Below, piece by piece: positions 9,223 through 52,440 of a stretch of 64,000 bases of DNA; the stretch's first letter is position 1; every line of letters begins with the position of its first letter. The position numbers and the translations under genes were made by a program. The stretch spans positions 24,954 to 88,953 of the forward strand of contig CAVVZZ010000013.1 of the NCBI GenBank assembly GCA_963752915.1, given 5' to 3'. This stretch comes from Ignavibacteriota bacterium. GTDB taxonomy: Bacteria > Bacteroidota > Ignavibacteria > UBA10030 > UBA6906. The notes under the pieces were generated by a model, which had not been told where the DNA came from, did no database searches, and was given only the letters and a program-made list of their open reading frames with translations.

Positions 9223-9276
9223 TCTGGGCGCCATGATCCATCACGTCCTTTGCAATTGAAGCTCACGAGGAGGCCG

Positions 9277-12200
9277 ATGGCACGTCTTCGACGAATGGTG
9301 CAGATCATGCTCGCCATAGCGTCTGCATCCACGCTGTCCTACGCCCAGACAAACGGCGCCGTCTCACCCACATGGTTCCTTCCTGCCCAAAGGGTTTCCC
9401 GGGACGTTCCAGGTTTACCCGGATGGAGACAGGGCGTGAATTCGCGTTCCGGTCGCGCGACGGCAACGTTGCGATCCTCCCCGTCCTCGCGGCCGCTGGA
9501 AACACTTGTGGTCACCACGGTCGCAGACACGGGGCAAGGGTCTCTGCGTCAGGCCATTCTCATTGCCGATACTCTCCTTGGCGTTGATCTCATCACCTTC
9601 AATATCCCCGGGACCGGCGTTCACACGATTGCCCCGCTCTCGAAGCTCCCAAATATCACAGATCCTTTGCTCATCGACGCGACGTCGCAGCCAGGTTTCA
9701 CCGGAACTCCGCTGATTGTGCTGGACGGCTCCAATATCACCGGTGTCGATCTCCTGGACGTGTTCGCGAACGAGTGCGTGATCAACGGCATGGCGTTCGA
9801 AAGCGTGCGGGCTGGAACCGCCGTGGTTCTGTACGGGGACGGCAATACCATCGTGGGGAGTTATTTCGGTTTGGAACCCACGGGAGCAACGGCTTCAGTC
9901 ATAGACTACAATGGTATCGTCATCTATGGCGCGTTCAACAGGATCGGGGGAACTCAAAGCCAGAACAGAAACTGCTTTGCGGGGACCTCACTGCCAGCCG
10001 TCGCCCTTAGTGGGATTGACGCCCTCGGCAACGTCATCGATGGGAATTATATCGGAACCGATGCATCCGGGGCCGTGAGGGTTGGAACCCAAACCGAGTC
10101 GATTATTCTGGCCAATTGGGCGTCGGGTGATACTATCGGAGGACTCGCCACTGGTGCCGGAAACGTCTGTTCCGGCTCCGCACACGCCTCGGGAATAACC
10201 ATAATCGGACCGGCGTCTGATGACAATGTCATACAGGGAAACCGGATCGGGACGGACACTTACGGGATGGCAGCAATCGGAAATGCCGGGAACGGAATTT
10301 TCGTGAGCGGTGCATATGGCACTGTGATCGGGTCTCTGACCATTTTTGGCGGCAATCTGATTTGTGGGAATGGTGGGACAAAGTATCCGGCGGTGTTTGT
10401 CGACAGCACTGCTTCCCACACGCAGATCCTCGGGAACCGGATCGGCATCGGGTACAACGGTCTGACATCGATTCCAAACTATGAAGGAATCCTTCTCAAC
10501 GGATCCCACGACAACCTTCTAGGAGGAAATGTCATCTCCGGCAATACCCTCCATGGTGTCATCATCCGCAACGCAGGGGCGACTGGAAACACGCTGAAAG
10601 CGAATCTGATCGGTGTCTCCGCCTTCGCCAATGTACCCATCGGGAACAACGGCCATGGGGTTCTGCTCGCCGCATCCGACAACGTGATTGGGGGACCGAA
10701 CCCCGGGGATGCAAATACCATCGCCTTCAATTTCGGTGCGGGGATATCGGTCGACAGCGGGGAACGTAATCTCATCACCCAGAATGAAATTTATTCGAAC
10801 TACGGCCTCGGGATCAATCTTGCCCCGGCCGGGGTGAACCCCAATGATACATTGGACGCGGACACAGGCGCGAACCAGATGCAAAACTACCCCGAGCTCG
10901 ACACACTGAAACGGCACGGGACCTCGATCGATGTCAGTGGCCGGCTTGTCTCCGCACCGGACGGTGTTTACACCGTAGAGTTCTTTGCAGACTCCGGGGA
11001 CGTGTCACACTACGGGCAAGGGCGGGGGTATCTCGGCTCCGCAACGATTCCGACGGGACCATCCGGTGTGGCAAGCTTCAAGGTCACCCTCCCGGCCTCC
11101 ATCTCCCCGCAGGAAGTCGTCACTGCGACCGCCACCGATGCGAACGGCAATACGTCCGAATTTTCCCGGGACATCGGGAGAGACTACGTGGTCACGAATC
11201 CGCCTCGCGGGAAGCTCTGGGTTGTCGGAGATCGGGACACCATCAGGTGGGAATCCTCGGACACAGGCCACGTGCACATTGCATTCAGCTCGGACACAGG
11301 ATATACGTATCACACCATCACGGCAGACACGAGCGGTGCGGCACATGAATTCCCGTGGATCGTGGAGAAGGCCCGTTCGACCCGGTGCAGGATCCGCGTT
11401 ACCTCTGTTGATGACCCGACGATGTCGGGAGAGAGCGAGTTCTTCAAAGTGAAGGGTGTCGAATTGACCCGCTACACCGCCGACAGTTCCTACGAGGCAT
11501 TTGACCCTGCCATCCACGGTTGGAGCTTTGCGAATGCTGCGAATATTATGTGGGCGCCGAAATGGTATGCCCGATTCAACTATGCAACGCGGACCGACCC
11601 CAACACCGCCCTTCCGTATCCCGGAGCGTGGAGCAACGCCCCCATCAACGCCAAAAGTGCGGACTTTCCGGACTGGCCGCTCTATGTCTCAGCGTTTGGC
11701 ACAAACCAGTGTTACATTGCGACCCCCGCCGGATTATCGTATCGCCCGTCCGCCGTGGCCTTCTGGACGGCGCTCAAAGGTTCGTGGGGTGGGTCCTGTT
11801 ATGGGTTCGCGGTCTCAAGCTTGATGGCTTTCGATGACCCTGCGTCGTTCCTCGTCAATGAAACAGAGATGCCTCCGTTCCTGAACCTGTACTCCCTCGC
11901 TGCGGACACAGTCCACCACCTTCAAAATGTCGTGAGCAGAATGTGGATTTACACGGCAGCGCGCATCAACAAAGTCCAGTCCGACACTCACGCGCAGGAT
12001 CCCCTCAGCACCATACTGGACACCCTGCGTGATTCGTTTCTTGGTGATACCCGGGACGACAGGATTATCTCCTTCTGGGATGCAAAGGGCGGTGGGCACA
12101 GCCTTGCTCCCTACAAGATTGAAAAGGATTCGTTACGTCCGAACATCCGGTATCTCTATCTCTATGACTCCAATGTGCCGGGGGGAGAGAATGACCGTGT

Positions 12201-13485
12201 CGTCATGGATATTGTGAACGACACATGGACGTTTGCGCCGCTTGGCTGGGGGAACACGAAACATTTTGTGCTCTCGAGGCCCGTGAGCACGAATCTGGGT
12301 CAGGCCCAATTTCCAAGGGTTAGTCCAGAGGCGGGGCGGCACCTTGCCGCTCTCGCGGGGAACGGCAATCAATTCTCCGTGTACATCCCGGAGGGGGCCT
12401 CCGTCCTCGTGACAGCTCCGAACGGCGGACATATTCAGTATGCCGACTCGATTGAGGCGGATAGCATCCCGGGTGCGAGTCTGATCATTCCGCCCACAGG
12501 AGGTTTCTCCCTGCCGATCGGATTCACCCTACCCGCCGGCAAATACACAGTCCAATTGACTCGGTGCCCGGATTCCACGGGGCGCGTTTTCCTCTTTTCC
12601 GATTCTGCAGTCTACAGCTGGTACCGCACAGGGGAGGATCCACAGCAAATCGATATTGTCAAATACGACGGAGGGTTGACATACGCGAATCCGGGCACTG
12701 GCGACCGGGGCGTCGGCTTTCGATGCATTCTGCCCGAGCAAAACAGAGAACGCGAAGTTGATCTTTCCGGCCTCGATGTCGGCGGAAACGATAGCGTCCG
12801 CATCAGGATCGGCGGGGACGGTTCCTGCGATGTGACGACGCATGGGATGGGGCAATCGTACGACCTGGTGCTGAACAATGTTTCGACCCTCGGGTCGTCC
12901 AGCTTTGCGCACGTTCAGGTTGCCCTTCAGCAGAATTCCACACACCACATACTCCCCGACTGGAGCAACCTGCAGGCAGCGTCGGTCAAGATTCTTGTTG
13001 ATCGCGGGAATACGGGTTCCTTCTCCGATTCCCTTCTGCTGAACAACCAGGCGACTGGTATCGGTGAGCCAGGGAGCAATCCCGGATCGCCAACTGAATT
13101 CATTCTTTTCCAGAACTACCCGAACCCGTTCAATCCGACGACGACTATTCAGTTCGTCGTGGGAGGAGTCGTCGCCCCGAGCGGAGCGTTTCGCAGCGGA
13201 GCCGAAGGGCCAACAACAGCTATCAGTGGATCCGTCCCGCCGAAGGCGGGACGAGACCTCGTCTCGAACTCCGTTCGAGACGGGCAGTGGACAGGGGACA
13301 GTTGGGTGAGTCTGGTTGTGTATGACGTTCTGGGGCGCCAGGTGGCAACGCTGGCAAATGGCCGATATCCAGCGGGGAGATACTCGTTTACCTTCGACGG
13401 AGCAAACCTGGCAAGTGGGGTGTACTTCTATCGCTTGACTGCGGGGTCATTTCCCGCGGTTCGGAAGATGCTCTTAGTTCGTTGA
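9277..13485 (+). CDS. Large secreted parallel beta-helix protein with a possible cysteine-peptidase-like middle domain and an interrupted T9SS CTD
   Basis: ORF 9250..13485. The ATG at 9277 follows AGGAGG (MARLRRMVQIMLAIASASTLSYAQ). Many NxxxGN/GI beta-helix repeats. GSWGGSCYGFAVSS ... GGGHSLAPY ... YDSNVPG. The CTD (FQNYPNPFNPTTTIQF ... VVYDVLGRQVATL ... GVYFYRLTAGS...LLVR) is split by an extra segment of roughly 47 aa. Confidence 0.75.
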   Translation: MARLRRMVQIMLAIASASTLSYAQTNGAVSPTWFLPAQRVSRDVPGLPGWRQGVNSRSGRATATLRSSPSSRPLETLVVTTVADTGQGSLRQAILIADTLLGVDLITFNIPGTGVHTIAPLSKLPNITDPLLIDATSQPGFTGTPLIVLDGSNITGVDLLDVFANECVINGMAFESVRAGTAVVLYGDGNTIVGSYFGLEPTGATASVIDYNGIVIYGAFNRIGGTQSQNRNCFAGTSLPAVALSGIDALGNVIDGNYIGTDASGAVRVGTQTESIILANWASGDTIGGLATGAGNVCSGSAHASGITIIGPASDDNVIQGNRIGTDTYGMAAIGNAGNGIFVSGAYGTVIGSLTIFGGNLICGNGGTKYPAVFVDSTASHTQILGNRIGIGYNGLTSIPNYEGILLNGSHDNLLGGNVISGNTLHGVIIRNAGATGNTLKANLIGVSAFANVPIGNNGHGVLLAASDNVIGGPNPGDANTIAFNFGAGISVDSGERNLITQNEIYSNYGLGINLAPAGVNPNDTLDADTGANQMQNYPELDTLKRHGTSIDVSGRLVSAPDGVYTVEFFADSGDVSHYGQGRGYLGSATIPTGPSGVASFKVTLPASISPQEVVTATATDANGNTSEFSRDIGRDYVVTNPPRGKLWVVGDRDTIRWESSDTGHVHIAFSSDTGYTYHTITADTSGAAHEFPWIVEKARSTRCRIRVTSVDDPTMSGESEFFKVKGVELTRYTADSSYEAFDPAIHGWSFANAANIMWAPKWYARFNYATRTDPNTALPYPGAWSNAPINAKSADFPDWPLYVSAFGTNQCYIATPAGLSYRPSAVAFWTALKGSWGGSCYGFAVSSLMAFDDPASFLVNETEMPPFLNLYSLAADTVHHLQNVVSRMWIYTAARINKVQSDTHAQDPLSTILDTLRDSFLGDTRDDRIISFWDAKGGGHSLAPYKIEKDSLRPNIRYLYLYDSNVPGGENDRVVMDIVNDTWTFAPLGWGNTKHFVLSRPVSTNLGQAQFPRVSPEAGRHLAALAGNGNQFSVYIPEGASVLVTAPNGGHIQYADSIEADSIPGASLIIPPTGGFSLPIGFTLPAGKYTVQLTRCPDSTGRVFLFSDSAVYSWYRTGEDPQQIDIVKYDGGLTYANPGTGDRGVGFRCILPEQNREREVDLSGLDVGGNDSVRIRIGGDGSCDVTTHGMGQSYDLVLNNVSTLGSSSFAHVQVALQQNSTHHILPDWSNLQAASVKILVDRGNTGSFSDSLLLNNQATGIGEPGSNPGSPTEFILFQNYPNPFNPTTTIQFVVGGVVAPSGAFRSGAEGPTTAISGSVPPKAGRDLVSNSVRDGQWTGDSWVSLVVYDVLGRQVATLANGRYPAGRYSFTFDGANLASGVYFYRLTAGSFPAVRKMLLVR
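13233..13282 (+). other. Two adjacent perfect stem-loops inside the extra segment of the CTD coding sequence
   Basis: cgtcccgcc-gaa-ggcgggacg (13233..13253, 9-bp stem). cgtctcgaac-tcc-gttcgagacg (13260..13282, 10-bp stem). An overlapping alternative palindrome is cgagac-ctc-gtctcg. Confidence 0.7.
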
Positions 13486-13496
13486 CGGCAGCACGC

Positions 13497-13536
13497 TTTT
13501 TCTCCCCTTCTCTAAGTCTCCCCGTCTCTCCTTCGG
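13497..13536. repeat. Octamer tandem repeat array (core TCTC/GTCTC)
   Basis: TTTTTCTC CCCTTCTC TAAGTCTC CCCGTCTC TCCTTCGG, starting 12 nt after the stop codon at 13483-13485. Confidence 0.7.
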
Positions 13537-13649
13537 CGGGCAAATATTCCTTCACCTTCTGCGCGAACAGCGTGGCGAGCGGTGTGCACTTCCATCGATT
13601 GACGGCTGGCAGTTTCACAGCGACACGGTCGATGTTGGTCATCAAGTAG
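13530..13649 (+). pseudogene. Degenerate duplicate of the last ~35 codons of a T9SS CTD
   Basis: Translation ...SPSAGKYSFTFCANSVASGVHFHRLTAGSFTATRSMLVIK-stop (TAG 13647-13649). It aligns with the end of the upstream gene, YPAGRYSFTFDGANLASGVYFYRLTAGSFPAVRKMLLVR-stop. There is no start codon or upstream CTD part. Confidence 0.65.
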
Positions 13650-13677
13650 GAACTAACTATTCCGGTCAGCATAGTGT

Positions 13678-15879
13678 ATGAAGACGCTTCTCCTGGTGGT
13701 CGTCGGTGCCGGGCTCTGTGCCTGGTCAAGCCGTGTGACGGCGCAGGCATGGGTTCAAACTAATGGGCCGTATGGCGGGAACATACGCTATTGTGCCGCT
13801 GACAGCGAAGGCACCGCATTTGCCGTTTCCTATCCCGAGTTCGGACCCATTGCCCTCTACCGGTCGACCAACGCAGGGGCGGCTTGGACGCCTGTTGACA
13901 TCGTGGCTCCTGCGACGTTCGCCGGCCCGGTGTTCTGCGCCGGCGGCGGGGTCGTCCTCGCTGGTGCAGCCGACGCAATTCATCAACCCTCCATCGCGCG
14001 TTCCTCCGATAACGGAGTAACCTGGACTTTTGTCTCGAACACAATCCTTCCGTCTGCGTTTGCCGCCGACTCCGTTGGAGGTTTCTACTGCACTTCCTCT
14101 GCCAGCTTCGGACAAACGGGTATTTTTCGCTCGACCGATCGTGGCGTCCACTGGACTTCAATCTCTTCAGATATCTCGATCCTGAGCCTGACATCGGTCG
14201 CTTGTTGGAAGAACGGAGTAATTCTTGTTGGCAGCGATTACTCGACGGCGAACTCCGGAGCGGTGTTTCGTTCGACGGACAACGGGGTGCATTGGGATGA
14301 AGCCCTGTCGAACGCCGGAGGGACGGTCGCGGCGTTGTGCACGACAGACTCGGGGACAATTCTTGCAGGAACGATGGGTGGGGGGATCTTTCGATCGACA
14401 GATGATGGGGATTCGTGGAGTAGTGTCAATGAAGGCCTTCAACGTCCGATGGTAAACTGCCTGGTGGTCTCCAGGAGTGAGGTTGTCTTTGCCGGAACAT
14501 CAGACAGGATCTTCCAGTCGACGAACGACGGCATGACCTGGAACCCCTCCAATTCGGGCGTCGCACACTTCATCATTCAATCAATCGCAACAGAGCCACA
14601 AGGTCTTTTGCTCGCCGGCACCGGCATGACGGTCTATCGCTCGACGGATAGCGGGGGGTCCTGGAACGAATCCGCGACCGGTATTGCCGGCACCTCGTGC
14701 ACCGCAATAACGGCCAACTTGGCCGGGACCGTGATTGTCGGAACAAGCAGCGCGGGAGGAGTGTTTCGATCGACCGATCGTGGCGAGACATGGATATCTG
14801 CAGCTTCGGGCGACCTGGTGAACAAGCGGGTCCGTTGTGTTGGAAGCGGGCAGTCCGCCTCGCTTTTCGTCGGAACAACCGCAGACTCGGGTGGGGTCGC
14901 GATGTACCGTTCAACCGATCAGGGGATGACGTGGGAACCTGTCGGTCCTCACATACCGGGGCTCTCGGCGGTGTGTTTTGCAAACGGGCCGGGAGGGGAA
15001 ATATTGTTCGGAACGTCGTCGGGAGACTCTGCACAAGGACTCTATCGTTCTACGGACAACGGAGGGACGTGGCAGGCGCTCCATACAGGATTGTCCAATG
15101 TGTTGTTTGAAGCTTTGGCGATCACTCCCGCAGGAACAATCTATGCGGGGTCGTATGGAGACGTCATTGTTTCGACCGATAGCGGCACCACCTGGAGTGA
15201 TATGTCCAATGGGCTGGCGTATGCACCGGTGAACTGGTTGGCTTCAGATTCTTCCGGGACGGTCATCGCAGCACAGAATCAATTCGGGGCTTATTTCCTG
15301 TCGGGAGGTCAATGGTTGCTGCGTGATCGCGGAGTGTCGGCATATGACGAGGGGTCAATGCTGTGTGTGATATTTGACAGCGCGGGAAACGAGTACGCCG
15401 GGTCCGAAGGCCACGGCGTTTACACTGGCAGGGGAATCTGGGCGCCGATGAATGCCGGTCTGACGGACTCGACAGTCTTCGCTCTTTGTGCAGGTCCGGG
15501 GAACGTTCTGTATGCCGCCACGGGCTCATCTGGCGTGTTTCGGTATGGCAAGGACACGGCAACGTCGATCGATCGCATTCAAACGTCCTCTCCTACTGAT
15601 TTCCGTCTCGAACAAAACTATCCGAACCCGTTCAATCCGTCGACGAGCATTCGATATACGGTAGCAGGGGACAGGGAACAGGGGACAGGGAACAGTGACG
15701 TTCGGCTGGTGGTCTACGACATGCTCGGAAGGGAGGTGGCGGTGCTTGTAAATGGACCTGAGGCTCAAGGGAGCCACGAAGTCTCGTTCGACGGAAGGAA
15801 GCTCTCAAGCGGAGTTTATTTGTATCGATTGACAGCGGGATCATCTACTGCGGTGCGAAAGATGGTATTGGTCAAGTAA
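13678..15879 (+). CDS. BNR/Asp-box repeat (sialidase/Ycf48-like beta-propeller) protein with T9SS CTD
   Basis: Signal peptide MKTLLLVVVGAGLCAWSSRVTAQA. About ten S-x-D-x-G-x-x-W boxes (STDRGVHW, STDNGVHW, STDDGDSW, STNDGMTW ...). CTD EQNYPNPFNPSTSIRY...VVYDMLGREVAVLV...GVYLYRLTAGS...MVLVK. Confidence 0.85.
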   Translation: MKTLLLVVVGAGLCAWSSRVTAQAWVQTNGPYGGNIRYCAADSEGTAFAVSYPEFGPIALYRSTNAGAAWTPVDIVAPATFAGPVFCAGGGVVLAGAADAIHQPSIARSSDNGVTWTFVSNTILPSAFAADSVGGFYCTSSASFGQTGIFRSTDRGVHWTSISSDISILSLTSVACWKNGVILVGSDYSTANSGAVFRSTDNGVHWDEALSNAGGTVAALCTTDSGTILAGTMGGGIFRSTDDGDSWSSVNEGLQRPMVNCLVVSRSEVVFAGTSDRIFQSTNDGMTWNPSNSGVAHFIIQSIATEPQGLLLAGTGMTVYRSTDSGGSWNESATGIAGTSCTAITANLAGTVIVGTSSAGGVFRSTDRGETWISAASGDLVNKRVRCVGSGQSASLFVGTTADSGGVAMYRSTDQGMTWEPVGPHIPGLSAVCFANGPGGEILFGTSSGDSAQGLYRSTDNGGTWQALHTGLSNVLFEALAITPAGTIYAGSYGDVIVSTDSGTTWSDMSNGLAYAPVNWLASDSSGTVIAAQNQFGAYFLSGGQWLLRDRGVSAYDEGSMLCVIFDSAGNEYAGSEGHGVYTGRGIWAPMNAGLTDSTVFALCAGPGNVLYAATGSSGVFRYGKDTATSIDRIQTSSPTDFRLEQNYPNPFNPSTSIRYTVAGDREQGTGNSDVRLVVYDMLGREVAVLVNGPEAQGSHEVSFDGRKLSSGVYLYRLTAGSSTAVRKMVLVK
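15667..15694 (+). repeat. Four GGGRACA heptamers embedded in frame in CTD coding sequence
   Basis: GGGGACA GGGAACA GGGGACA GGGAACA, encoding ...GDREQGTGN... Confidence 0.8.
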
Positions 15880-15887
15880 ACGTTCAC

Positions 15888-15943
15888 ATCGTCTCCAAGT
15901 CCCAAAGTCTCCAGGTCTCCCCTTCTCCCCATCCCCCCTTCTC
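15888..15943. repeat. Octamer tandem repeat array (7 units, core GTCYC/TCTC)
   Basis: ATCGTCTC CAAGTCCC AAAGTCTC CAGGTCTC CCCTTCTC CCCATCCC CCCTTCTC, between the stop at 15877-15879 and the 3' end of tRNA-Arg. Confidence 0.8.
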
Positions 15944-15948
15944 AGTTG

Positions 15949-16020
15949 TGCGCCCAGAGGGATTTGAACCCCCACTGTCAGTTCCGAAGACTGAAGTGCT
16001 ATCCATTACACCATGGGCGC
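15949..16020 (-). tRNA. tRNA-Arg (anticodon TCG)
   Basis: Minus strand GCGCCCA TG GTGT AATGGATA GCAC T TCAGT CTTCGGA ACTGA CAGT GGGGG TTCAAAT CCCTC TGGGCGC A. It folds by hand into a 72-nt cloverleaf. No encoded CCA. Confidence 0.85.
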
Positions 16021-16426
16021 GGCACAGGTCAGTATAGAAAAAACGATCCCGCGAAGCAAGCATGAAACCCATGTCTGCTCATCCCTAAAATCCGGAGATT
16101 ATGGTAGCAATTCAGCTAGGCCACCCCTCGCCGATGAAGAGACTAACCGTGAACAGGATCATCCCGCCTTGACTCACCCGAACCGATACAGTACCTTATA
16201 CTCGGGATGAACCGGAAACTTTCTCTCCCCAGTTCATTGATATCGATGCCCTTTCATCGCGCGATGATAGGGCAATTTTGTTTCTTGAGCCCGAGAATCA
16301 GGCAGATAGTCTGCTTCGCGTGCTCCATCTCAATTCTCTGTCCTTTTTCTCCAGATTCGAGGGCTTTGGGAGTATATACATATTGGAAAAGGTGGGGCGA
16401 ATAAATATTGTCATCGTAACCGCAAG

Positions 16427-19231
16427 ATGATGAGAATCCCTGGCAGAAATCGGTTTCTAGTCCATCTCATAGTGATCGCGATATTCAGTTGTGCCAGAGC
16501 GTCGACGCAGACGATCGTCGTAACTTCGCTGGACGACTCCGGGCCGGGGACGCTGCGCGAATTAGTGGCGAATGCTGGTGACGGTGCAGTGATCATGTTC
16601 GATCCTACCCTCAAGGGAGAAATAGTACTCGAAACTCGAATTTGGATCGAGCATAACCTGACGATTGTCGGACCTCCATCCAGCTCTTTACAAATCGTCG
16701 GTCTCAACTATATACGCCAGTCAAATTCAGCGCCGCTTCTGGGGATCGACACTTTGAAAACAGTGATATTGCGTCGATTAGTTTTGGTTGGCGGAGCCGA
16801 GGGGACGGTGCCGGGTGGGGGCGGAATCTACAACCGGGGGACTCTCTATCTGGATACGTGCGAAGTCTCTGACTGTTCGCTCTACGGATGGCTGACCCCT
16901 GGATTCACAATGCATGGATCAGGCGTATACAATAGCGGCCTCCTGATTGCGAGCGCAAGTCGGTTCTCCAGAAACACTTTCCAGGGGTTATATAATTCAG
17001 GGTCGGCTCAATTGAAGGATTGCACCTTTTCTGGAAACACGGGCATGGGTGCAGGCATTAACAATGTTGGAACACTCGAGGCGCAAGGATGCGCATTCGC
17101 GGGGAACAGCAACACCGCCATCGACCCGCATGATGGAACGACAATACCGGCGCGCGGCGGCGCAATAAGCAACTCGGGAACGGCTGCGCTTGTCAACTGC
17201 ACCTTGAGCGGTAACTCCGCGTTTGTCGTTGAAGGGATTGCTACAGGCCCCGTCGTAGGCTCGTACTATTACTATGCTCCGGCATACGGAGGCGGGATCT
17301 ATAACAGTGCACTGGGGAAACTGAGCCTCGTCTACTGCACCGTAACGGACAACCGTGCAGACTTTCCCGCGATAGATCACGGGAACGCGTCCGACGGCGG
17401 AGGGATATTCAATGACGGCGGCGAACTGAATCTGCTAAACACAATTGTCGCCCGTAACACCGGGGGAGAACCCGCACGGGACATCGCCGGGCGGACAACG
17501 CTAGCAATTCATTCTCTGATCGGCGAACTCGCCTATCCCGACTCGCTTGTTACCCTTCCTTCAAACAACAATCTCTTCGGCAGTCCGGATCAACCGCTGA
17601 ATCCAATGCTCGACGTCTTCGCCGAACACGGGGGGGAAACTCCGGTATGGTCGTTGGCGAGCGGTAGTCCAGCCATTAATGGAGCACTGTCGGTTGATTC
17701 GGTGACGATTGACCAGCGGGGGTACACGCGGACCATTTCAACCGACATCGGTGCGTATGAGCACGATCCGGCGTTTAGCACCATTCCGCAAACAGTCTCA
17801 TTGATTTCTCCCATCACAAATACCACGATCTCGCCGGATACAAGTATTTTCGTTTGGAGCCGGTCAGTCGGAGCGACGTCGTATCGAATTAGCGTTGCGC
17901 TGGATTCACAGTTTGCTTCGGTGGTGGAGGATCTTAGCGGGATTGCGAACCGATCCATACAGACACCTGCGCTTCCCGGGGATGCCCGGTTGTACTGGCG
18001 GGTCAGAGGGACGAGCTCGTTGGGTGACGGCCAATGGAGCGGCGTCGGACCATTTCTTACTGGGCACAAGCTGTTTATTCCTGACTCGATTCAGATTTTA
18101 GGTCCAGACAGCGCGGTGTATCACACGATGTACATAACCTTCCGGTGGCGAACGGCCAGGAATGCTGAGTCGTATCACGTTCGGCTACAACGGTACGATA
18201 GTTATGGAATTCTACAGACAGTGTCTGAAGTCCCGCAATGTCCGGACACAGCAATCACGCTCGGAGTGGCAGTAAGCAATTGGCAGTACCTCCTGACTGT
18301 CTATGGAGCAAACGCAGAAGCGACAGGCAGGACAACGACACTCACAGTTCGGACTGCCGACATTCCGCCACCTGTACCACCGTCGCTGCAGTTTCCGCCT
18401 GACAGCGCACTCGTCCCCACTGCAGTAATCCTGCGCTGGGCTGACTCCCGGCAGAATACCTATGACTCAGGGTTTGAGTTGCAGGCCGTCACCGACACCG
18501 TTGGCGCTGGCACGTATCATATGTGGTCAGGGCATGACCCGGAGTGCGACCCGGGCAGCCGATATTTCTCATTCCCCGTCGGCCAGACATTCTTCTGGAG
18601 GGTCAGGACGAAGGTCGAAGGAAGATCGGGCAACTACTCGCTCTGGAGACGCTTCACTGTCAGTACGGAACAGCTTCAGCCGCCTCGGCTCCTTGCCCCT
18701 CTCAGTGGTACAGAAGCCCTTCAACTGCCGATTACGTTGACCTGGAGTCCTCAGCCTCAGGCGCGCTCGTTCCACGTACAGGTATCAGCTGCAGCCTCAT
18801 TCGATTCACTGGTATTCGATAGAGTTCTTGATGGGTCACAAACGGGATGTACGGTGAGCAACCTCCGCTCGTCCGGAGTGTACTATTGGAAAGTCGTGGT
18901 AACGAGCTCATCCGGCACGGTTGAAGAATCCGCGATTGCGAATTTTGCGATCGAGGGTCTCTCGCCGGCTCAAGTGACACTGGAGCAGAACTATCCGAAC
19001 CCGTTCAATCCGACGACGAGGATACTTTACAGCGTACCTGGCGCAATGCATGTTACACTGAAGCTGTACAACACTCTGGGGGAGGAAGTGCGCACGCTCG
19101 TGAATCAGGATGTCGGCGCGGGGTGGCATGAGGTGGTCGTCGACGCAAAGGGGTTGGCAAGCGGGTTGTATTTCTACAGGCTGAAGACCCCAGGTTTTGT
19201 CCAGACGAGGAGACTGATTTGTGTGCGGTGA
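16427..19231 (+). CDS. Secreted beta-helix (polymorphic-membrane-protein-like GGxIxN repeats) protein with Ig/FN3-like repeats and T9SS CTD
   Basis: Signal peptide. Repeats GGGIYNRG, GGAISNSG, GGGIYNSA, GGGIFNDG. DQRGYTRTISTDIGAYE motif at the end of the helix domain. CTD EQNYPNPFNPTTRILYS...LYNTLGEEVRTLV...GLYFYRLKT...LICVR. Confidence 0.8.
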   Translation: MMRIPGRNRFLVHLIVIAIFSCARASTQTIVVTSLDDSGPGTLRELVANAGDGAVIMFDPTLKGEIVLETRIWIEHNLTIVGPPSSSLQIVGLNYIRQSNSAPLLGIDTLKTVILRRLVLVGGAEGTVPGGGGIYNRGTLYLDTCEVSDCSLYGWLTPGFTMHGSGVYNSGLLIASASRFSRNTFQGLYNSGSAQLKDCTFSGNTGMGAGINNVGTLEAQGCAFAGNSNTAIDPHDGTTIPARGGAISNSGTAALVNCTLSGNSAFVVEGIATGPVVGSYYYYAPAYGGGIYNSALGKLSLVYCTVTDNRADFPAIDHGNASDGGGIFNDGGELNLLNTIVARNTGGEPARDIAGRTTLAIHSLIGELAYPDSLVTLPSNNNLFGSPDQPLNPMLDVFAEHGGETPVWSLASGSPAINGALSVDSVTIDQRGYTRTISTDIGAYEHDPAFSTIPQTVSLISPITNTTISPDTSIFVWSRSVGATSYRISVALDSQFASVVEDLSGIANRSIQTPALPGDARLYWRVRGTSSLGDGQWSGVGPFLTGHKLFIPDSIQILGPDSAVYHTMYITFRWRTARNAESYHVRLQRYDSYGILQTVSEVPQCPDTAITLGVAVSNWQYLLTVYGANAEATGRTTTLTVRTADIPPPVPPSLQFPPDSALVPTAVILRWADSRQNTYDSGFELQAVTDTVGAGTYHMWSGHDPECDPGSRYFSFPVGQTFFWRVRTKVEGRSGNYSLWRRFTVSTEQLQPPRLLAPLSGTEALQLPITLTWSPQPQARSFHVQVSAAASFDSLVFDRVLDGSQTGCTVSNLRSSGVYYWKVVVTSSSGTVEESAIANFAIEGLSPAQVTLEQNYPNPFNPTTRILYSVPGAMHVTLKLYNTLGEEVRTLVNQDVGAGWHEVVVDAKGLASGLYFYRLKTPGFVQTRRLICVR

Positions 19232-19407
19232 GCTGGCAATTGCTAGTGGCGCAAATCACGAGACTCGCTTCACGCCTTCCCTCGGGTAATGGCCGAACCA
19301 ATAAAAGATGGCAGATAGACTTTGCGGTTTGCTCAGATCGGCACACGTTGGTTCCGGAAGACGCTATCTGCAGTTGCCTTGGAAGCTCCTTCAGGCAAGA
19401 TCACCCT

Positions 19408-21504
19408 ATGAAATCAGTTCGACGTTTCTTCTTTGCGGGACTCTTGGTAGCAACCATGATACCCACCACGTATGCCCAGTGGAAACAGACCGGTGGTCCC
19501 CCGGGAGGTGCAGTCATTTGTTTTGCCGTCTCGGGCACTAACCTCATCGCGGGAACTGGTAGCGGCGTATTTCTTTCGACAAACAATGGCACAAATTGGA
19601 CTGCCAGCAATGCGGGGTTGGCGAACCCTTATGTCCGTTCCCTTGTCGCCTCGGGCGAATATCTGTTTGCTGGGATTGGCGACGATGGCGTGTTTCGTTC
19701 GACCGATAACGGGACGAGCTGGACGGCTGTCAATTCAGGGTTGACTTATAGGATTGTGTCCGCGCTTGCCGTCTGCGGCACAAACCTCCTTGCGGGCACA
19801 GATCTCGGTGTGTTCGTTTCGACCAACAACGGCACAAGCTGGGCCGTAACGGAGTTGACGAATATGTCCGTCTCGTCTTTTGCGGTCTCTGGAGCATATC
19901 TCTTTGCCGGGGCTGGCGGCGGCGTGTTTGTTTCCACCGACAACGGGACACGCTGAACCGATACAGGTGGGCTAACGCACACTGGCGTCTTCGCTCTTGC
20001 GGTCTCGAACACAAATCTCTTTGCGGCCATAGATGGTGGCGGCATGATTGTTTCGAGTAACGACGGCGCGAGCTGGGCTAACGCGGGGTTGTCTGGCACT
20101 TATGTTCAATCTCTTGCGGTCTCGGGCACAAGTCTCTTTGCGGGGACTTGGCTTGGCGGGGTTTTTCTTTCGACCGATAGTGGCACTAGCTGGACAGCGG
20201 TCAATGAAGGCTTGCCGCACGTCGATTACAATATCGTATATGCCCTGGCAGTATCCGGGACAAACCTCTTCGCCGGGAATGGCGATGACGGTGTGTTTCG
20301 TTCGACCAACAATGGCACTACCTGGACTGCCGTCAATACTGGGCTGGCGAACACGGATGTCTTGTCTCTTGCCGTATCGGGAGCAAATCTTTTCGCAGGG
20401 ACGATGTGGGACGGCTTGTTTCTTTCGACCAACAATGGCACCAGCTGGTCAGCCGTAAATGAGGGCTTGCTGACTATCCACTATGATTGGACCTATGCCT
20501 TAGCCGTCTCGGGCACAAGTCTCTTCGCGGGCACAGTTGAGAGCGGCGTGTTTGTTTCGACCAACAACGGCACAACCTGGACAAATACAGGCTTGAATGG
20601 CTTTGGGGTCCTGTCTTTTGCCATGTTGGACACAAATTTCTTTGCCGCGACGAATCTCGGCGGCGTGTTTCTTTCCACAAATGGTGGCGCGAGCTGGGAT
20701 GCTGTCAACACGGGTCTGCACTCCTCTCTTGTCATGGCACTAGCCGTTTCGGGCACAAATCTCTTCGCGGCGAGCGGCGGCGTATATCTATCGACCAATA
20801 ATGGCACTAGCTGGACATCCGCCAATACAGGATTGCCAAATAGTACCGTTTTGTCTCTTGCCGTCTCGGGCTCAAACCTCTTTGCGGGGACCCAGCGAGA
20901 CGGTGTGTATCGCTCGACCGACAATGGTTCAAGCTGGACAGCCGTTAACGCGGGGTTGTCAGACCTTTACAACAATTCTGTCTACACTTTCGCTGTATCG
21001 GGGACGCATCTATTCGCCGGGACTGTCGATGGTGTACATCATTCGACCAACAATGGCGCGACCTGGACAGCCGTCAGCGCTGGGTTGACCAACACACCGG
21101 TTCTTGTCCTTGTAGCCTCGGGTGAAAATCTCTTTGCTGGAACTGCTGGCGGAGGCGTCTGGAGACGTCCCTTGTCGGAAATGATTGCTTCGGTGGAGAT
21201 GACATCGGCTCTTCTCCCGACTGACTTCAATCTCGATCAGAACTACCCCAACCCGTTCAATCCGACAACGAGCATTCGATATACGGTAGCAGGGAACAGG
21301 GAACAGGGGACAAGGAACAGTGACGTTCGGCTGGTGGTCTACGACATGCTCGGAAGAGAAGTGGCGGTGCTTGTGAACGGACGCGAAGCCCCCGGGAGCT
21401 ACGAAGTCTCTTTCGACGGCAGCAAGTTGTCAAGCGGTGTCTATTTGTATCGATTGACAGCGGGATCATCCGCGGCAGTGCGGAAGATGATTCTCGTCAA
21501 GTAG
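19408..21504 (+). pseudogene. BNR-like repeat protein with T9SS CTD, interrupted by one in-frame TGA (19954-19956)
   Basis: ORFs 19219..19956 and 20044..21504 are in the same frame. The likely start is the ATG at 19408 (MKSVRRFFFAGLLVATMIPTTYAQ). The repeat unit is GVF.STNNGTSWT..N.GL...V.SLAVSG.NLFAGT. The TGA falls where the repeat has its conserved Trp codon (NGTR-stop-TDTG versus NGTTWTNTG). Confidence 0.65.
21292..21319 (+). repeat. Four GGGRACA-type heptamers embedded in frame in CTD coding sequence
   Basis: GGGAACA GGGAACA GGGGACA AGGAACA, encoding ...GNREQGTRN... Confidence 0.8.
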
Positions 21505-21513
21505 AAGTTCGTT

Positions 21514-21541
21514 GGTAACAGTGAACAGTGAACAGTAAAGA
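21514..21541. repeat. Heptamer tandem repeat
   Basis: GGTAACA GTGAACA GTGAACA GTAAAGA, starting 10 nt after the stop at 21502-21504. Confidence 0.7.
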
Positions 21542-21571
21542 GCTTTGAAGGCGGCGGCCGATGACTATCCC

Positions 21572-21611
21572 ATGGTCCCCAAGTCCCACCGTCCCAAGGT
21601 GACAAAGTCCC
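21572..21611. repeat. Octamer tandem repeat array (core GTCCC)
   Basis: ATGGTCCC CAAGTCCC ACCGTCCC AAGGTGAC AAAGTCCC. The unit CAAGTCCC is identical to one at 15896..15903. Confidence 0.75.
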
Positions 21612-21996
21612 AATGCATACTCTTCCTCCAAAATAATTCTCTGCAAGAGCTGATTCCGCTCTGATTTCCGCATATTCATCCCCTCCCATTTTCTCCAGAT
21701 CGATCGGCATTTCGGATATATACAATTGGAGCTCGAATAGTCTGGGCGGGATCGATCGGCATGGTATTGCCCATCACTTGACAAGCGTCGATTCGTTCCT
21801 CCGCGTGCGCCCCGGTCTGTTCCTCCCTCCGCCGTTCGCATCACTTTAGACGTCGACTGAGATTTAGCTTTTCGCGCCTCATTGGGCTCGTCCAAGTCCG
21901 GAAGGCGCGTGCTGCCGCTACGGCCTCTCCCGGATTCTTCCTGACGATGCGCCATGTGGCCGATATGACGATCAACTCAAGGAAGATCACAGAACC

Positions 21997-28113: not shown

Positions 28114-28119
28114 TGAGAA

Positions 28120-28159
28120 GGGGAGACTGGGGGACGTTGAGACTGTGAGACTCTGGGAT
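28120..28159. repeat. Octamer tandem repeat array (GAGAC core, reverse orientation of the GTCTC family)
   Basis: GGGGAGAC TGGGGGAC GTTGAGAC TGTGAGAC TCTGGGAT, starting 7 nt after the stop at 28111-28113. Confidence 0.75.
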
Positions 28160-28192
28160 AATGAAGCGTATAACCAAGCCCGGTCTCTGACG

Positions 28193-28220
28193 CCTGAAGC
28201 CTGAACCCCGAAGCCTGAAA
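28193..28220. repeat. Heptamer tandem repeat
   Basis: CCTGAAG CCTGAAC CCCGAAG CCTGAAA. Confidence 0.75.
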
Positions 28221-28254
28221 TGGACAACATTCGACAAACAATCTCGGCAGCGCA

Positions 28255-30352: not shown

Positions 30353-30426
30353 GCGCCTGTAGCTCAATTGGATAGAGTGCCTGACTACGGATCAGACGGT
30401 TGGGGGTTCGAGTCCCTCCAGGCGCA
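30353..30426 (+). tRNA. tRNA-Arg (anticodon ACG)
   Basis: GCGCCTG TA GCTC AATTGGATA GAGT G CCTGA CTACGGA TCAGA CGGTT GGGGG TTCGAGT CCCTC CAGGCGC A. 74 nt, with one C-A mismatch at the top of the anticodon stem. Confidence 0.85.
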
Positions 30427-30460
30427 CAACGGACCGATTGACAATAGTCTATGGTCAATG

Positions 30461-30495
30461 GACTATCGTCAATCGCGACGGCCGGGCTTTGAACA
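30461..30495 (+). repeat. 35-bp direct repeat, copy 1
   Basis: gactatcgtcaatcgcgacggccgggctttgaaca. Matches 30700..30734 at 30 of 35 positions. Confidence 0.7.
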
Positions 30496-30496
30496 G

Positions 30497-30514
30497 GAGT
30501 CCCTCCAGGCGCAC
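30497..30514 (+). repeat. Duplicate of the 3' end of tRNA-Arg(ACG)
   Basis: gagtccctccaggcgcac is identical to 30410..30427 (the T-arm/acceptor 3' half of the tRNA plus one flanking base). Confidence 0.8.
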
Positions 30515-30598
30515 GAAGATTGAAAATCGAAGATTGAAGATCGAGGATTGGTAATGAATCAACAATCCTCGATCCTCAATCCTCCATCTTCAATTAGT
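30515..30598. repeat. Twelve-unit heptamer array with dyad symmetry
   Basis: GAAGATT GAAAATC GAAGATT GAAGATC GAGGATT GGTAATG AATCAAC AATCCTC GATCCTC AATCCTC CATCTTC AATTAGT. The right half is the approximate reverse complement of the left half. Confidence 0.8.
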
Positions 30599-30699
30599 CC
30601 CAGCCTTCGATCTTCTCTGATTCACACCGCTCTCCGGCCGCTTTGCGGCGGCGGAGTCCGTTCGACTACTGGATGTTCCCGATCGGATCGAGTGCATCT

Positions 30700-30734
30700 G
30701 ACTATCGTCAATCGCTGCAGCCGGGCTCTGAACA
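30700..30734 (+). repeat. 35-bp direct repeat, copy 2
   Basis: gactatcgtcaatcgctgcagccgggctctgaaca. Confidence 0.7.
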
Positions 30735-51835: not shown

Positions 51836-51921
51836 AGTGGGATCCTGCACGGTGAGCGGTGGGGTGGAATATATAGCTAGGGAATCAAGAGGGAAGATGC
51901 AAGAGAAGCAAGGAGGGGGCA

Positions 51922-51992
51922 GGGGACAGGGAACAGGGGACAGGGAACAGGGAACAGGGGACAGGCCCGGGACAGGCAGGGGACAGGGCAGA
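51922..51992. repeat. GGGRACA heptamer array
   Basis: GGGGACA GGGAACA GGGGACA GGGAACA GGGAACA GGGGACA GGCCCGG GACAGGC AGGGGAC AGGGCAG. Contains the 19-mer ggggacaggcccgggacag (51957..51975), which recurs at 52067..52085. Confidence 0.85.
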
Positions 51993-52011
51993 CATTGACC
52001 TGAGGTCAAAT

Positions 52012-52047
52012 TCTAGATTTTAGAGTTCAGATTTTAGATTAGATTAG
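52012..52047. repeat. AT-rich heptamer array
   Basis: TCTAGAT TTTAGAG TTCAGAT TTTAGAT TAGATTA. Confidence 0.75.
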
Positions 52048-52078
52048 TCCGGCCGTGGTGAAGACTGGGGACAGGCCC

Positions 52079-52118
52079 GGGACAGTACAGTAAACAGTAG
52101 ACAGTTGACAGTGAGAGA
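52079..52118. repeat. NNNACAG heptamer array
   Basis: GGGACAG TACAG TAAACAG TAGACAG TTGACAG TGAGAGA. Confidence 0.75.
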
Positions 52119-52440
52119 GGTGCTTATCGAAAGTGATTAACCGATATCCAGTCCGATGAATACTGGGATTTTCATCAAGAATTGTGGTGTTTGAAAGATT
52201 CCTTTTAAAGTCATATATTGAGCCCATCTTCAGGGGATCCTGTTCTTTTCCTACTAACCCTTTGATGGTCGGCCGAACAGTCTTCGTTCGTCATCCGGTA
52301 ATCGTCCACACGGCGTGTCCGCCAGAGGCGCAGAGCCACGTCTGCTCCTCCGCAAGAGTCTTCCGCACTTTCGACCCTGATTCCTTCTCAAATCGCGCTC
52401 ATCCGCGACATCCGCTATCGCCACTATCGAAGGCCCTGCC

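What the first reader, a model, noticed from the sequence alone, without database searches (positions are those of the whole stretch)
15888..15943. Family of 8-bp tandem repeat arrays (core GTCYC) placed just after stop codons
Four loci carry 4-7 head-to-tail octamers sharing a GTCTC/GTCCC core with variable flanking triplets. They are 13497..13536, 15888..15943, 21572..21611 and, in reverse orientation (GAGAC), 28120..28159. Identical units recur between loci: CCCTTCTC at 13505 and 15920, and CAAGTCCC at 15896 and 21580. Each array lies shortly downstream of the stop codon of a secreted or outer-membrane protein gene: three begin within about 12 nt, and the array at 21572 is about 70 nt away, behind a heptamer array. 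One abuts tRNA-Arg. One sits inside the putative envelope operon, between genes 4 and 5. They are too short and spacer-less to be CRISPR and have no hairpin potential like REP elements. The closest known analogue is the STRR heptamer repeats of heterocystous cyanobacteria, whose function is still unclear. I do not know of such arrays in T9SS-bearing lineages.
Basis: seen in the sequence. Interest (0 to 1): 0.65.

Follow-up and report, generated by a model that had tools for sequence, protein, structure and literature searches.

The report
Short 8-base tandem repeats after genes
The four arrays are real, but they are the 8-base members of a lineage-specific bloom of 7-8-base simple tandem repeats, like the STRR repeats of cyanobacteria, that fills the non-coding gaps of this soil bacterium's genome. 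They are not a device of secretion-system genes, and their function is still unproven.

Summary
Exactly four loci carry 4-7 head-to-tail octamers of the form (A/C)3-K-T-C-Y-C: 11 pattern matches against 0.02-0.09 expected. Independent short-read contigs reproduce two of them exactly.

- The octamers are a minority class. The window also holds nine or more heptamer arrays. Eleven of 13 arrays lie in the 8% of the window that is non-coding; two lie inside T9SS C-terminal-domain loops.
- GTCYC-core octamer arrays occur in Bacteroidota, Ignavibacteria, Cyanobacteria, Planctomycetota, Acidobacteriota and other phyla, so they are not new to T9SS-bearing lineages.
- Distant relatives with the same T9SS gene triad have no arrays.
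- Close relatives show fast turnover: arrays are absent, half conserved, or replaced by another unit at the same site.
- A1 sits at a rearrangement junction, in front of the displaced ancestral 3' end of its gene.

Best reading: STRR-type long simple-sequence repeats made by slippage and recombination, surviving where DNA is least constrained. For A1-A3 the transcribed strand is C-rich, G-poor and unstructured, which resembles a Rho loading site. That is inferred, not shown. The invariant T-C-x-C core with free spacers is not explained.

Verdict: a new variant of a known, poorly understood kind. Interest is moderate.

The parts
13497..13536 (+). A1: octamer array with 4 clear units plus a decayed fifth. 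C-rich on the sense strand, 11 nt after the stop of T9SS gene 9250-13485. It lies directly in front of the displaced ancestral 3' end of that gene.
15888..15943 (+). A2, the array of the finding: 7 octamers. It starts 8 nt after the stop of BNR/sortilin T9SS gene 13678-15879 and ends 4 nt from the 3' end of the convergent tRNA-Arg(tcg). It is the joint highest C>G peak on the plus strand of the whole window.
21564..21611 (+). A3: 6 octamers, one broken (GTGAC). It begins 59 nt after the stop of BNR paralogue 20044-21504, behind a heptamer array. It is the only one of the four with a canonical G-quadruplex motif, on the minus strand.
28115..28162 (-). A4: 6 octamers in the opposite orientation (GRGA(C)NNN on the plus strand). 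It starts 2 nt after the stop of the 514-aa gene 26569-28113 and lies 93 nt before the start of the 450-aa gene at 28255.
21509..21548 (+). Heptamer array (AACAGTG) between the stop at 21504 and A3.
28184..28221 (+). Heptamer array (CTGAAGC) about 35 nt before the start of gene 28255. The same unit stands at the same site in L124.
15659..15701 (+). Heptamer array (CAGGGGA/CAGGGAA, i.e. a GRGAC core with a 2-nt spacer) inside the coding sequence, in the beta1-beta2 loop of the T9SS C-terminal domain of gene 13678-15879.
21277..21324 (+). The same kind of heptamer array in the C-terminal-domain loop of gene 20044-21504.
30447..30596 (+). Three heptamer arrays (ATGGTCA-like, GAAGATT, CAATCCT) downstream of tRNA-Arg(acg).
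51904..52116 (+). Cluster of heptamer arrays (CAGGGGA, ATTTTAG, ACAGTAG) in the divergent serA/MPAB promoter region. It is inserted between sequence blocks that are conserved in relatives.
13545..13649 (+). Untranslated remnant: the ancestral last 34 codons plus stop of gene 9250-13485.
15948..16020 (-). tRNA-Arg(tcg), whose 3' end abuts A2.

Best explanation
The four arrays are non-coding simple-sequence repeats of an 8-nt unit, (A/C)3-K-T-C-Y-C. They are the octamer class of a lineage-specific bloom of 7-8-nt tandem repeats, STRR-type 'long SSRs'.

How they arise and persist (inferred from the comparisons):
- They arise, grow, shrink and are replaced by slipped-strand mispairing and illegitimate recombination.
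- They persist where the DNA of a compact genome is least constrained. That is the first tens of nucleotides after a stop codon or tRNA end, the middle of promoter gaps, and one tolerant protein loop.
- They are not a component of T9SS genes.

Likely side effect (inferred, untested): where the C-rich strand is transcribed (A1-A3), the array gives a G-poor, YC-rich RNA tract with no secondary structure. No hairpin terminator is found after these genes. Such a tract is what Rho uses as an entry site in E. coli, so these arrays probably help to end or insulate the upstream transcript.

The cause of the invariant T-C-x-C core is not known.
For: Shown:
- Periods 7 and 8 alone exceed simulation: 9 against 0.07 and 1 against 0.05. 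Periods 4-6 and 9-12 are at background.
- 11 of 13 arrays lie in the 8.1% of the window that is non-coding, P = 7e-11.
- Turnover among relatives:
  - A1 is absent from L121, where the intergenic gap is 25 nt.
  - Only the tRNA-proximal 17 nt of A2 are kept in L121.
  - The site of A4 holds a purine-rich array in 4 of 4 genomes, but as octamers, 6-8-mers or GGAGTAG heptamers.
  - About 270 nt of arrays upstream of serA are reduced to about 55 nt in L127 and absent in L128 and L129, between conserved flanks.
- L125 and L126 have the same gene triad and GC content and no arrays in 44 kb.
- A1 sits at a rearrangement junction. 13545-13649 matches the end of the L121 orthologue at 82/105 nt, against 62/105 for the gene's present end.
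- Heptamer arrays in the C-terminal-domain loop add exactly 7 aa, which is 3 units. In L122 they break two genes, one by frameshift and one by an in-frame TAG. They behave as mutational baggage.
- The same kind of array is found in many phyla.

For the Rho idea:
- A2 is the joint top C>G peak of the 64 kb.
- C>G bubbles are 105, 154 and 167 nt long. In E. coli, all templates tested in vitro with bubbles above 78 bp terminated with Rho (PMC6144790).
- The arrays are unstructured.
- Terminator-like hairpins are not above background: 15 against 16.2.
- A relative encodes Rho.
Against: - Adjacent units differ almost only at positions 1-3 (33 of 48 mismatches), and only twice at T5, C6 and C8. The permutation gives P < 5e-6. 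Simple decay of a once-perfect repeat does not predict this. It points to selection on the core or to a sequence-specific copying process. The register was chosen by the core, so this is partly ascertainment.
- An array has persisted at the A4 site in 4 of 4 genomes despite change of unit. This could mean selection for a property rather than neutrality.
- Against the Rho side effect:
  - A4 has the G-rich strand in the transcript.
  - Across phyla, G-rich-sense arrays after stops are the commoner case, 34 against 21.
  - In L055 the array lies between the stop and a normal hairpin terminator. In L031 it lies after one.
  - Neighbouring heptamers such as AACAGTG are not C-rich.
- No RNA data exist for this organism.
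Confidence: 0.6

Rival explanations
1. The C-rich arrays are selected Rho-dependent terminators. They act as dedicated rut sites that replace hairpin terminators after T9SS cargo genes.
For: - A1-A3 have the C-rich strand in the sense of the upstream gene, 8-67 nt after the stop.
- They give top C>G peaks and bubbles of 105-167 nt.
- Each unit carries two YC dimers, and there is no structure.
- There is no excess of hairpin terminators.
- Three more C-rich-sense octamer arrays occur in L122.
- Rut criteria are taken from PMC6144790.
Against: - A4 and its three orthologous arrays are in the wrong orientation.
- G-rich-sense is the majority across phyla.
- Arrays coexist with hairpin terminators in L031 and L055.
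- A1 and most of A2 are absent from the close relative L121.
- Heptamer arrays at the same positions are not C-rich.
Confidence: 0.2
2. They are G-quadruplex or i-motif forming regulatory repeats, as proposed for the G-rich heptamers of Xanthomonas and Nostoc.
For: - Three of the four canonical G4 motifs of the whole window lie in repeat arrays: 15667-15690, 51915-51939 and 21569-21595.
- A4, and A2 relative to the tRNA, follow the published rule of the G-rich strand in sense within 50 bp after the gene end (PMC4692102).
- The cross-phylum loci show the same asymmetry: 20 of 34 arrays within 35 nt of the stop against 5 of 34 near the start, P = 3e-4.
Against: - Only A3 of the four octamer arrays has a canonical G4 motif.
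- GTCTC/GAGAC units have no G-run.
- A1 has only two G3 tracts.
Confidence: 0.1
3. They are landing pads for a protein that binds single-stranded nucleic acid with a 7-8-nt footprint, such as a cold-shock-domain, KH or S1 protein. The protein would recognise the phased T-C-Y-C core.
For: - The core is invariant and the spacers vary.
- Period-8 arrays not chosen by my pattern still carry GTCYC/GRGAC in 15 of 56 consensus units, against 3.9% expected. TCYC is in 30 of 56 against 13%.
- Second flanking units vary least at T, C and C (chi-square P = 0.017).
- Csp, S1 and CsrA were proposed as binders for heptamer repeats in PMC4679880.
Against: - No candidate protein is known.
- Both orientations occur.
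- Unit sequence and period change at one site among close relatives.
- The arrays surveyed may be relatives of the selected arrays in the same loci, so they are not independent.
Confidence: 0.1
4. They are mediators or scars of recombination that swaps the 3' ends of T9SS genes. A G-rich array in the C-terminal-domain loop and a C-rich array after the stop bracket the last 60 or so codons as a cassette.
For: - A1 lies exactly between the present 3' end and the displaced ancestral 3' end.
- A3 lies at the right edge of a 5.6-kb segment missing in L121.
- A2 coincides with an indel of about 220 nt against L121.
- All three genes followed by A1-A3 carry a GRGAC-type array 187-248 nt upstream.
- The same stop, heptamer, octamer order occurs at an unrelated T9SS gene in L122.
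- A role in rearrangement was suggested in PMC4679880.
Against: - This rests on three junctions.
- Junctions and arrays both collect in non-coding DNA anyway.
- The pairing energy of the bracketing arrays is only in the top 2-20% of background.
- L122 c and d have direct, not inverted, arrangements.
Confidence: 0.12
5. It is a chance low-complexity sequence or an assembly artefact.
For: None.
Against: - 11 matches against 0.02 and 0.09 expected.
- Identical sequence is present in independent runs.
- Related arrays exist in relatives.
Confidence: 0.01

Closest known systems
STRR (short tandemly repeated repetitive) heptamers of heterocystous cyanobacteria (Mazel et al. 1990, from my own knowledge; mentioned in PMC4692102)
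   Same: - Head-to-tail short units without spacers.
- Mostly intergenic, with many loci per genome.
- Different unit families stand side by side.
- STRR1 CCCCAGT in another register is GTCCCCA, the same core.
- The window also holds ACAGT- and TGGTCA-type heptamers like STRR3 and STRR2.
- Function is unknown.
   Different: - The unit is 8 nt.
- The units are degenerate, with free spacers and a fixed T-C-Y-C core.
- The host is a soil MAG whose nearest named relatives are Bacteroidota and Ignavibacteriae MAGs.
G-rich heptamer SSRs GGGAATC (Xanthomonas) and GGGGA(C/T)T (Nostoc), Rehm et al. 2015, PMC4692102
   Same: - Intergenic, and hugging the stop codon.
- Rare between divergent genes.
- Both strands occur.
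- The G-rich-sense-after-stop rule fits A4 and the A2/tRNA pair.
   Different: - Only one of the four octamer arrays can form a canonical G4.
- A1 and A3 break the orientation rule.
TAACTGA direct repeats of Beggiatoaceae, Cyanobacteria and five Bacteroidetes, MacGregor 2015, PMC4679880
   Same: - Heptamer-scale tandem repeats shared by distant phyla, including Bacteroidetes.
- Mixed with other heptamer arrays.
- Absent from close relatives at the same site.
- A link to rearrangement was suspected.
   Different: - Those are mostly just upstream of start codons in forward orientation.
- They have a different unit and perfect copies.
Rho utilisation (rut) sites, and polypyrimidine repeats that work as artificial Rho terminators (Guerin et al. 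1998, from my own knowledge)
   Same: C-rich, G-poor, unstructured, YC-rich tracts downstream of a stop codon (A1-A3).
   Different: - Natural rut sites are not tandem repeats.
- A4 is inverted.
- Nothing has been tested here.
Contingency-locus SSRs (phase variation) of Haemophilus and Neisseria
   Same: The heptamer arrays inside the C-terminal-domain coding sequence could switch the frame by one unit (7 = 1 mod 3). L122 has one such gene out of frame.
   Different: - The four octamer arrays are outside coding sequence.
- The units are few and imperfect.
- No copy-number polymorphism was seen, though depth was low.

Membership tests
STRR-type long simple-sequence repeats | Head-to-tail copies of a short unit without unique spacers | tested here: met
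STRR-type long simple-sequence repeats | Unit of 7 nt | tested here: not met
   The four arrays have period 8. The neighbouring arrays have period 7.
STRR-type long simple-sequence repeats | Many dispersed, mostly intergenic loci, with different unit families adjacent to each other | tested here: met
   13 arrays in 64 kb, 11 of them non-coding. Mosaics at 21509-21611, 28115-28221, 30447-30596 and 51904-52116.
STRR-type long simple-sequence repeats | Host is a heterocystous cyanobacterium | tested here: not met
   The nearest named relatives are Bacteroidota and Ignavibacteriae MAGs, and T9SS sorting domains are present.
G-quadruplex-forming SSR (Rehm et al. 2015) | Four or more G3+ tracts with short loops | tested here: not met
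   Only A3 has a canonical motif. A1, A2 and A4 do not.
G-quadruplex-forming SSR (Rehm et al. 2015) | G-rich strand in sense within 50 bp after the stop, or antisense within 50 bp before a start | tested here: inconclusive
   A4 and A2 (relative to the tRNA) fit. A1 and A3 do not.
Rho utilisation site | C>G bubble of about 78 nt or more on the non-template strand, YC dimers, little structure | tested here: met
   A1-A3 have bubbles of 105, 154 and 167 nt, and A2 folds at -0.8 kcal/mol. A4 meets this only on the antisense strand.
Rho utilisation site | Rho-dependent 3' ends downstream | not testable with these tools
   No RNA runs hold the window or the Melioribacter locus.
Intrinsic terminator | GC-rich hairpin followed by a U tract | tested here: not met
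CRISPR array | Repeats of 23-50 nt separated by unique spacers of similar length | tested here: not met
   The units are 8 nt and contiguous.
REP/BIME elements | Imperfect palindrome able to form a stem-loop | tested here: not met
   Fold energies are no better than shuffles on either strand. The one weak exception is the minus strand of A4, z = -2.0 at only -2.8 kcal/mol.
FtsK/SpoIIIE orienting octamers (KOPS GGGNAGGG; SRS GAGAAGGG, from my own knowledge) | Dispersed copies with strong strand polarity | tested here: not met
   GAGAAGGG occurs 6 times on plus and 4 on minus; GGGNAGGG 7 and 3. Arrays of both orientations lie within 13 kb.
Phase-variation SSR | Repeat in the coding sequence or promoter, with copy-number polymorphism in the population | tested here: inconclusive
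   The four arrays are outside coding sequence. No length variants were seen in low-depth contigs. The C-terminal-domain-loop heptamers are a separate case.

The most novel reading that the evidence does not exclude
The phased GTCYC/GRGAC core recurs at 7-8-nt spacing next to gene ends in Bacteroidota, Cyanobacteria, Planctomycetota, Acidobacteria and other phyla. It could be the cis element of an undescribed, widely shared system. One possibility is a protein, or Rho itself, that reads the phased core to set 3' ends or to insulate genes. Another is a sequence-specific copying activity that makes the arrays. In this lineage the matching heptamer arrays inside T9SS C-terminal domains would then work as frame switches that turn secretion of single cargo proteins on and off.
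Probability: 0.12. Interest if true: 0.75.

Novelty: new variant of a known kind. Interest (0 to 1): 0.4.

Why it matters
Tandem repeats of 6-9 nt in bacteria are common in some phyla, yet they have hardly been studied and have no accepted function.

This locus adds three things:
- An 8-nt class with a fixed T-C-Y-C core and free spacers. The cross-phylum scan found the same class well beyond cyanobacteria.
- Direct comparative evidence of how fast such arrays appear, change unit and vanish at fixed sites, and that they sit at rearrangement junctions.
- Repeats inside the T9SS sorting domain that lengthen a loop by exactly three units and break the gene in a relative.

If the core proves to be read by a factor, it would open the long-standing STRR question to experiment. 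If not, the arrays are a useful marker of genome dynamics, and a warning for gene callers: spurious ORFs and split T9SS genes.

Tried and rejected
- Exact look-up of window proteins in the contig collection found nothing. One relative was also not on record.
- RNA runs for the window and for the Melioribacter locus: none. Transcript ends could not be examined.
- Rfam: only the two tRNAs.
- Hairpin or terminator role: no structure, and no excess of terminator-like sites.
- Long-range pairing of the G-rich C-terminal-domain-loop array with the C-rich array after the stop. It appears in the MFE and centroid fold of 15650-15950, but the fold is no more stable than shuffles (z = +1.26). Duplex energies are only in the top 2-20% of background. 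I kept this as an idea, not a finding.
- G-quadruplex as the general explanation: 1 of 4 arrays.
- KOPS/SRS-like polar octamers, because the unit GAGAAGGG equals the B. subtilis SRS as I recall it: no strand polarity.
- ORF 21497-21955 on the minus strand, which would make A3 coding. It has no family hit, and the region aligns to non-coding DNA upstream of the orthologous gene in L121. I treated it as spurious.
- Copy-number polymorphism: none seen, but the depth was only 2-7x, in contigs. A contig in X1 with 34/37 identity to 15907-15943 in other flanks shows a similar array elsewhere, not a variant of this one.
- My cross-phylum context counts use crude ORF calls. So these numbers are indicative, not frequencies.

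Full report
**1. The observation**

Reading the four places shows head-to-tail octamers that share a register.
- A1, 13497-13528: TTTTTCTC CCCTTCTC TAAGTCTC CCCGTCTC.
- A2, 15888-15943: ATCGTCTC CAAGTCCC AAAGTCTC CAGGTCTC CCCTTCTC CCCATCCC CCCTTCTC.
- A3, 21564-21611: ACTATCCC ATGGTCCC CAAGTCCC ACCGTCCC AAGGTGAC AAAGTCCC.
- A4, minus strand of 28115-28162: ATTATCCC AGAGTCTC ACAGTCTC AACGTCCC CCAGTCTC CCCTTCTC.

GTCYC(N3) x4 with up to 2 mismatches matches 11 times against 0.02 in shuffles. TCYC(N4) x4 with up to 1 mismatch matches 11 times against 0.09, and only at these four loci.

In 21 units, T5 and C8 never vary and C6 varies once. Position 7 is T or C in 20 units, and position 4 is G in 15. 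Positions 1-3 are almost only A or C.

Logan contigs of other soil-metagenome runs reproduce 13464-13677, 15791-15953 and 15891-16041 without a difference. So the arrays are not assembly artefacts. No length variant was seen, at low depth.

The arrays do not fold. A2 as RNA has -0.8 kcal/mol, like its shuffles. Rfam finds only the two tRNAs.

**2. The surroundings**

- The genes ending in front of A1, A2 and A3 carry a T9SS sorting domain (NosD/beta-helix, and two BNR/sortilin paralogues).
- A2 is squeezed between the stop at 15879 and the 3' end of the convergent tRNA-Arg(tcg) at 15948.
- A4 follows the stop of a 514-aa gene with no family hit and precedes a 450-aa gene.
- In A1-A3 the C-rich strand is the sense strand of the upstream gene. 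In A4 it is the G-rich strand. A2 read from the tRNA is also G-rich. A2 (from the tRNA end) and A4 both begin with the unit GAGAAGGG, 2-4 nt after the gene end.

**3. The octamers are the smaller part of a wider phenomenon**

TRF and a self-similarity scan find heptamer arrays at 15659-15701, 21277-21324, 21509-21548, 28184-28221, 30447-30596 (three arrays) and 51904-52116 (three arrays).

Against first-order Markov simulations only periods 7 (9 against 0.07) and 8 (1 against 0.05) are in excess. Periods 4-6 and 9-12 are at background.

Eleven of 13 arrays lie in the 8.1% of the window outside my gene list, P = 7e-11. The other two lie inside coding sequence, in the same loop of two T9SS C-terminal domains.

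The CAGGGGA heptamers are the same GRGAC core with a 2-nt spacer. Others (ACAGTxx, TGGTCAA) resemble STRR3 and STRR2 of Calothrix as I remember them.

**4. Relatives**

The window comes from a soil-metagenome MAG on an 865-kb contig. Its nearest named relatives are Bacteroidota and Ignavibacteriae MAGs.

L121 is syntenic, with the BNR protein 77% identical.
- The NosD and BNR genes are 25 nt apart, with no A1.
- About 220 nt of unrelated sequence follow the BNR stop. Only the tRNA-proximal CTCCCCATCCCCCCTTC of A2 is kept.
- The A4 site holds GTTGAGAC TGTGAGAC (identical to the window) flanked by other xxxxxGAC units.

Two metagenome contigs whose 514-aa protein is 80-82% identical have other arrays at the same site directly after the stop. 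L123 has GGGGAT/GGGAGAG units of 6-8 nt. L124 has GGAGTAG heptamers.

Upstream of serA, about 270 nt of arrays stand between two blocks that are conserved in L127, L128 and L129. L127 has about 55 nt there. L128 and L129 have no array.

L122 (56% identity) is packed with arrays.
- Three are C-rich-sense octamer arrays. One of them has the order stop, heptamers, octamers behind an unrelated T9SS gene, as at A3. Another stands behind an ABC-type gene.

L125 and L126 carry the same PKD/NosD/BNR triad at the same GC content. They have no 7- or 8-nt array in 44 kb.

So the arrays are lineage-specific, turn over fast, and are not tied to T9SS genes.

**5. Junctions**

- 13545-13649, just behind A1, reads YSFTFCANSVASGVHFHRLTAGSFTATRSMLVIK*. 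It matches the end of the L121 orthologue at 27/35 aa and 82/105 nt. It matches the present end of its own gene at only 62/105 nt. So it is the ancestral 3' end, displaced by a new C-terminal-domain end plus stop plus A1.
- A3 lies at the right edge of a 5.6-kb segment (16021-21612) that L121 lacks.
- A2 coincides with the indel against L121.

This is three cases only. It agrees with a remark in PMC4679880 that such repeats may go with rearrangements.

**6. Other phyla**

- The loci come from Cyanobacteria, Bacteroidota (Saprospirales, Bacteroidales, Cytophagales), Ignavibacteriota, Planctomycetota, Acidobacteriota, Gemmatimonadota, Chloroflexota, Verrucomicrobiota and actinomycetes.
- The Melioribacter locus L031 shares the 23-mer GTCTCCAAGTCCCAAAGTCTCCA with A2.

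With crude ORF calls, most arrays are intergenic.
- Between co-directional genes, the G-rich-sense case is commoner (34 against 21).
- G-rich-sense arrays hug the stop: 20 of 34 lie within 35 nt, against 5 of 34 within 35 nt of the next start, P = 3e-4.
- This is the rule published for G-rich heptamers in Xanthomonas and Nostoc (PMC4692102).

In these loci, arrays not chosen by my pattern have mainly periods 7 (97) and 8 (56). Of the period-8 consensus units, 27% hold GTCYC/GRGAC against 3.9% expected.

In L055 the array lies between the stop and a normal hairpin terminator. In L031 it lies behind one.

**7. Mechanism**

Shown:
- It is a repeat family with a strong excess of periods 7 and 8.
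- It is confined to non-coding DNA and one tolerant loop.
- It is unstructured, turns over fast, is lineage-specific, and occurs at junctions.

Inferred: origin by slippage and recombination, and survival where constraint is lowest. In a compact genome that is the stretch just after a gene end, because promoters and leaders occupy the far side of a gap.

Inferred for A1-A3: the transcript carries a G-poor, YC-rich, unstructured tract.
- A2 is the joint top C>G peak of the window.
- The C>G bubbles are 105-167 nt long.
- Terminator-like hairpins are not in excess.
- By the E. coli criteria of PMC6144790 this is what a Rho entry site looks like, and a relative encodes Rho.

I rate this only as a likely side effect, because of A4, the cross-phylum orientation, the coexistence with hairpin terminators, and the non-C-rich heptamers at the same positions.

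Not explained: adjacent units differ at positions 1-3 in 33 of 48 mismatches, and at T5, C6 and C8 in only 2 (P < 5e-6). The register was defined by the core, so part of this is ascertainment. Unselected second flanking units in other phyla show the same trend only weakly (P = 0.017).

**8. Comparison with what is known**

The arrays work like, and largely are, STRR-type long SSRs. They fail the letter of the STRR definition on unit length and host.
- They are not G4 repeats as a class (1 of 4).
- They are not terminators, CRISPR or REP.
- They are not KOPS/SRS-like polar octamers, despite the unit GAGAAGGG.

**9. Verdict**

The link to T9SS genes and the claimed absence from such lineages do not hold.

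It is a new variant of a known but poorly understood kind, and the interest is moderate. What would raise it is proof that the phased core is read by a factor, or that the repeats in the C-terminal-domain loop switch secretion on and off.

Noticed in passing
window 15659-15701, 21277-21324 and about 13277-13310; L121 5666-5702, 9759-9794, 11971-12002; L122 5290-5329, 9491-9531, 11750-11775, 20005-20033: Heptamer arrays lie inside the coding sequence of T9SS C-terminal domains, always in the loop between the first two strands. That loop is 7 aa (three units) longer than in array-free domains of L125, L126 and window gene 16427-19231. In L122 two genes are broken exactly there. One is by frameshift, with a stop at 5310-5312 and the rest of the domain in another frame. 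The other is by an in-frame TAG of the unit ACAGTAG at 11765. This could be decay or a frame switch for secretion.
   Followed up: partly
window 13545-13649: An untranslated copy of the last 34 codons plus stop of a T9SS domain stands behind A1. It is the ancestral end of gene 9250-13485: 82/105 nt to the L121 orthologue against 62/105 to the present end.
   Followed up: yes
window 30405-30428 and 30497-30514; 30461-30495 and 30698-30733; L121 21468-22131: The 3' end of tRNA-Arg(acg), GAGTCCCTCCAGGCGCAC, is repeated about 90 nt downstream. A block of about 35 nt recurs 237 nt further on. In L121 the same place holds a 283-bp unit repeated 2.3 times that starts with the tRNA end and contains heptamers. 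It looks like repeated integration or duplication at the tRNA.
   Followed up: no
window 16330-16390 and 21680-21750; L121 about 12775-12830: A conserved block TTTTCTCCAGAT...(A/T)ATATACA stands upstream of genes 16427 and 21997 and once in L121. The 5.6 kb between the two window copies (a beta-helix T9SS gene, a 245-aa gene and the BNR paralogue) is missing in L121. This is probably a duplicated promoter region.
   Followed up: partly
window 51836-52440: The gap between serA (minus strand) and the MPAB-family gene (plus strand, 52441-53601) is a divergent promoter region. About 270 nt of repeat arrays are inserted there between blocks conserved in L127, L128 and L129. GGGGACAGGCCCGGGACAG occurs twice, at 51958 and 52067.
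   Followed up: yes
L122 11956-12037 and 12091-12152: Heptamer arrays (GACAGTA)n and their reverse complement (TACTGTC)n face each other between convergent genes. They would form a long imperfect hairpin. Paired inverted arrays were also reported in Xanthomonas (PMC4692102).
   Followed up: no
window 21497-21955 minus strand; L122 2659-2847 minus strand: ORFs that run through repeat arrays have no family hit and are probably spurious. One of them was called as a gene in the public record.
   Followed up: partly
window 28111-28116: The 514-aa gene ends in two stop codons in tandem, TGA TGA. The second overlaps the first unit of A4.
   Followed up: no
L129 13196-13286: A long heptamer array (CTGCCTT/CTGCCTA/CTGCTTA, about 12 units) lies between convergent genes in a relative at 79% serA identity that otherwise has few arrays.
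   Followed up: no
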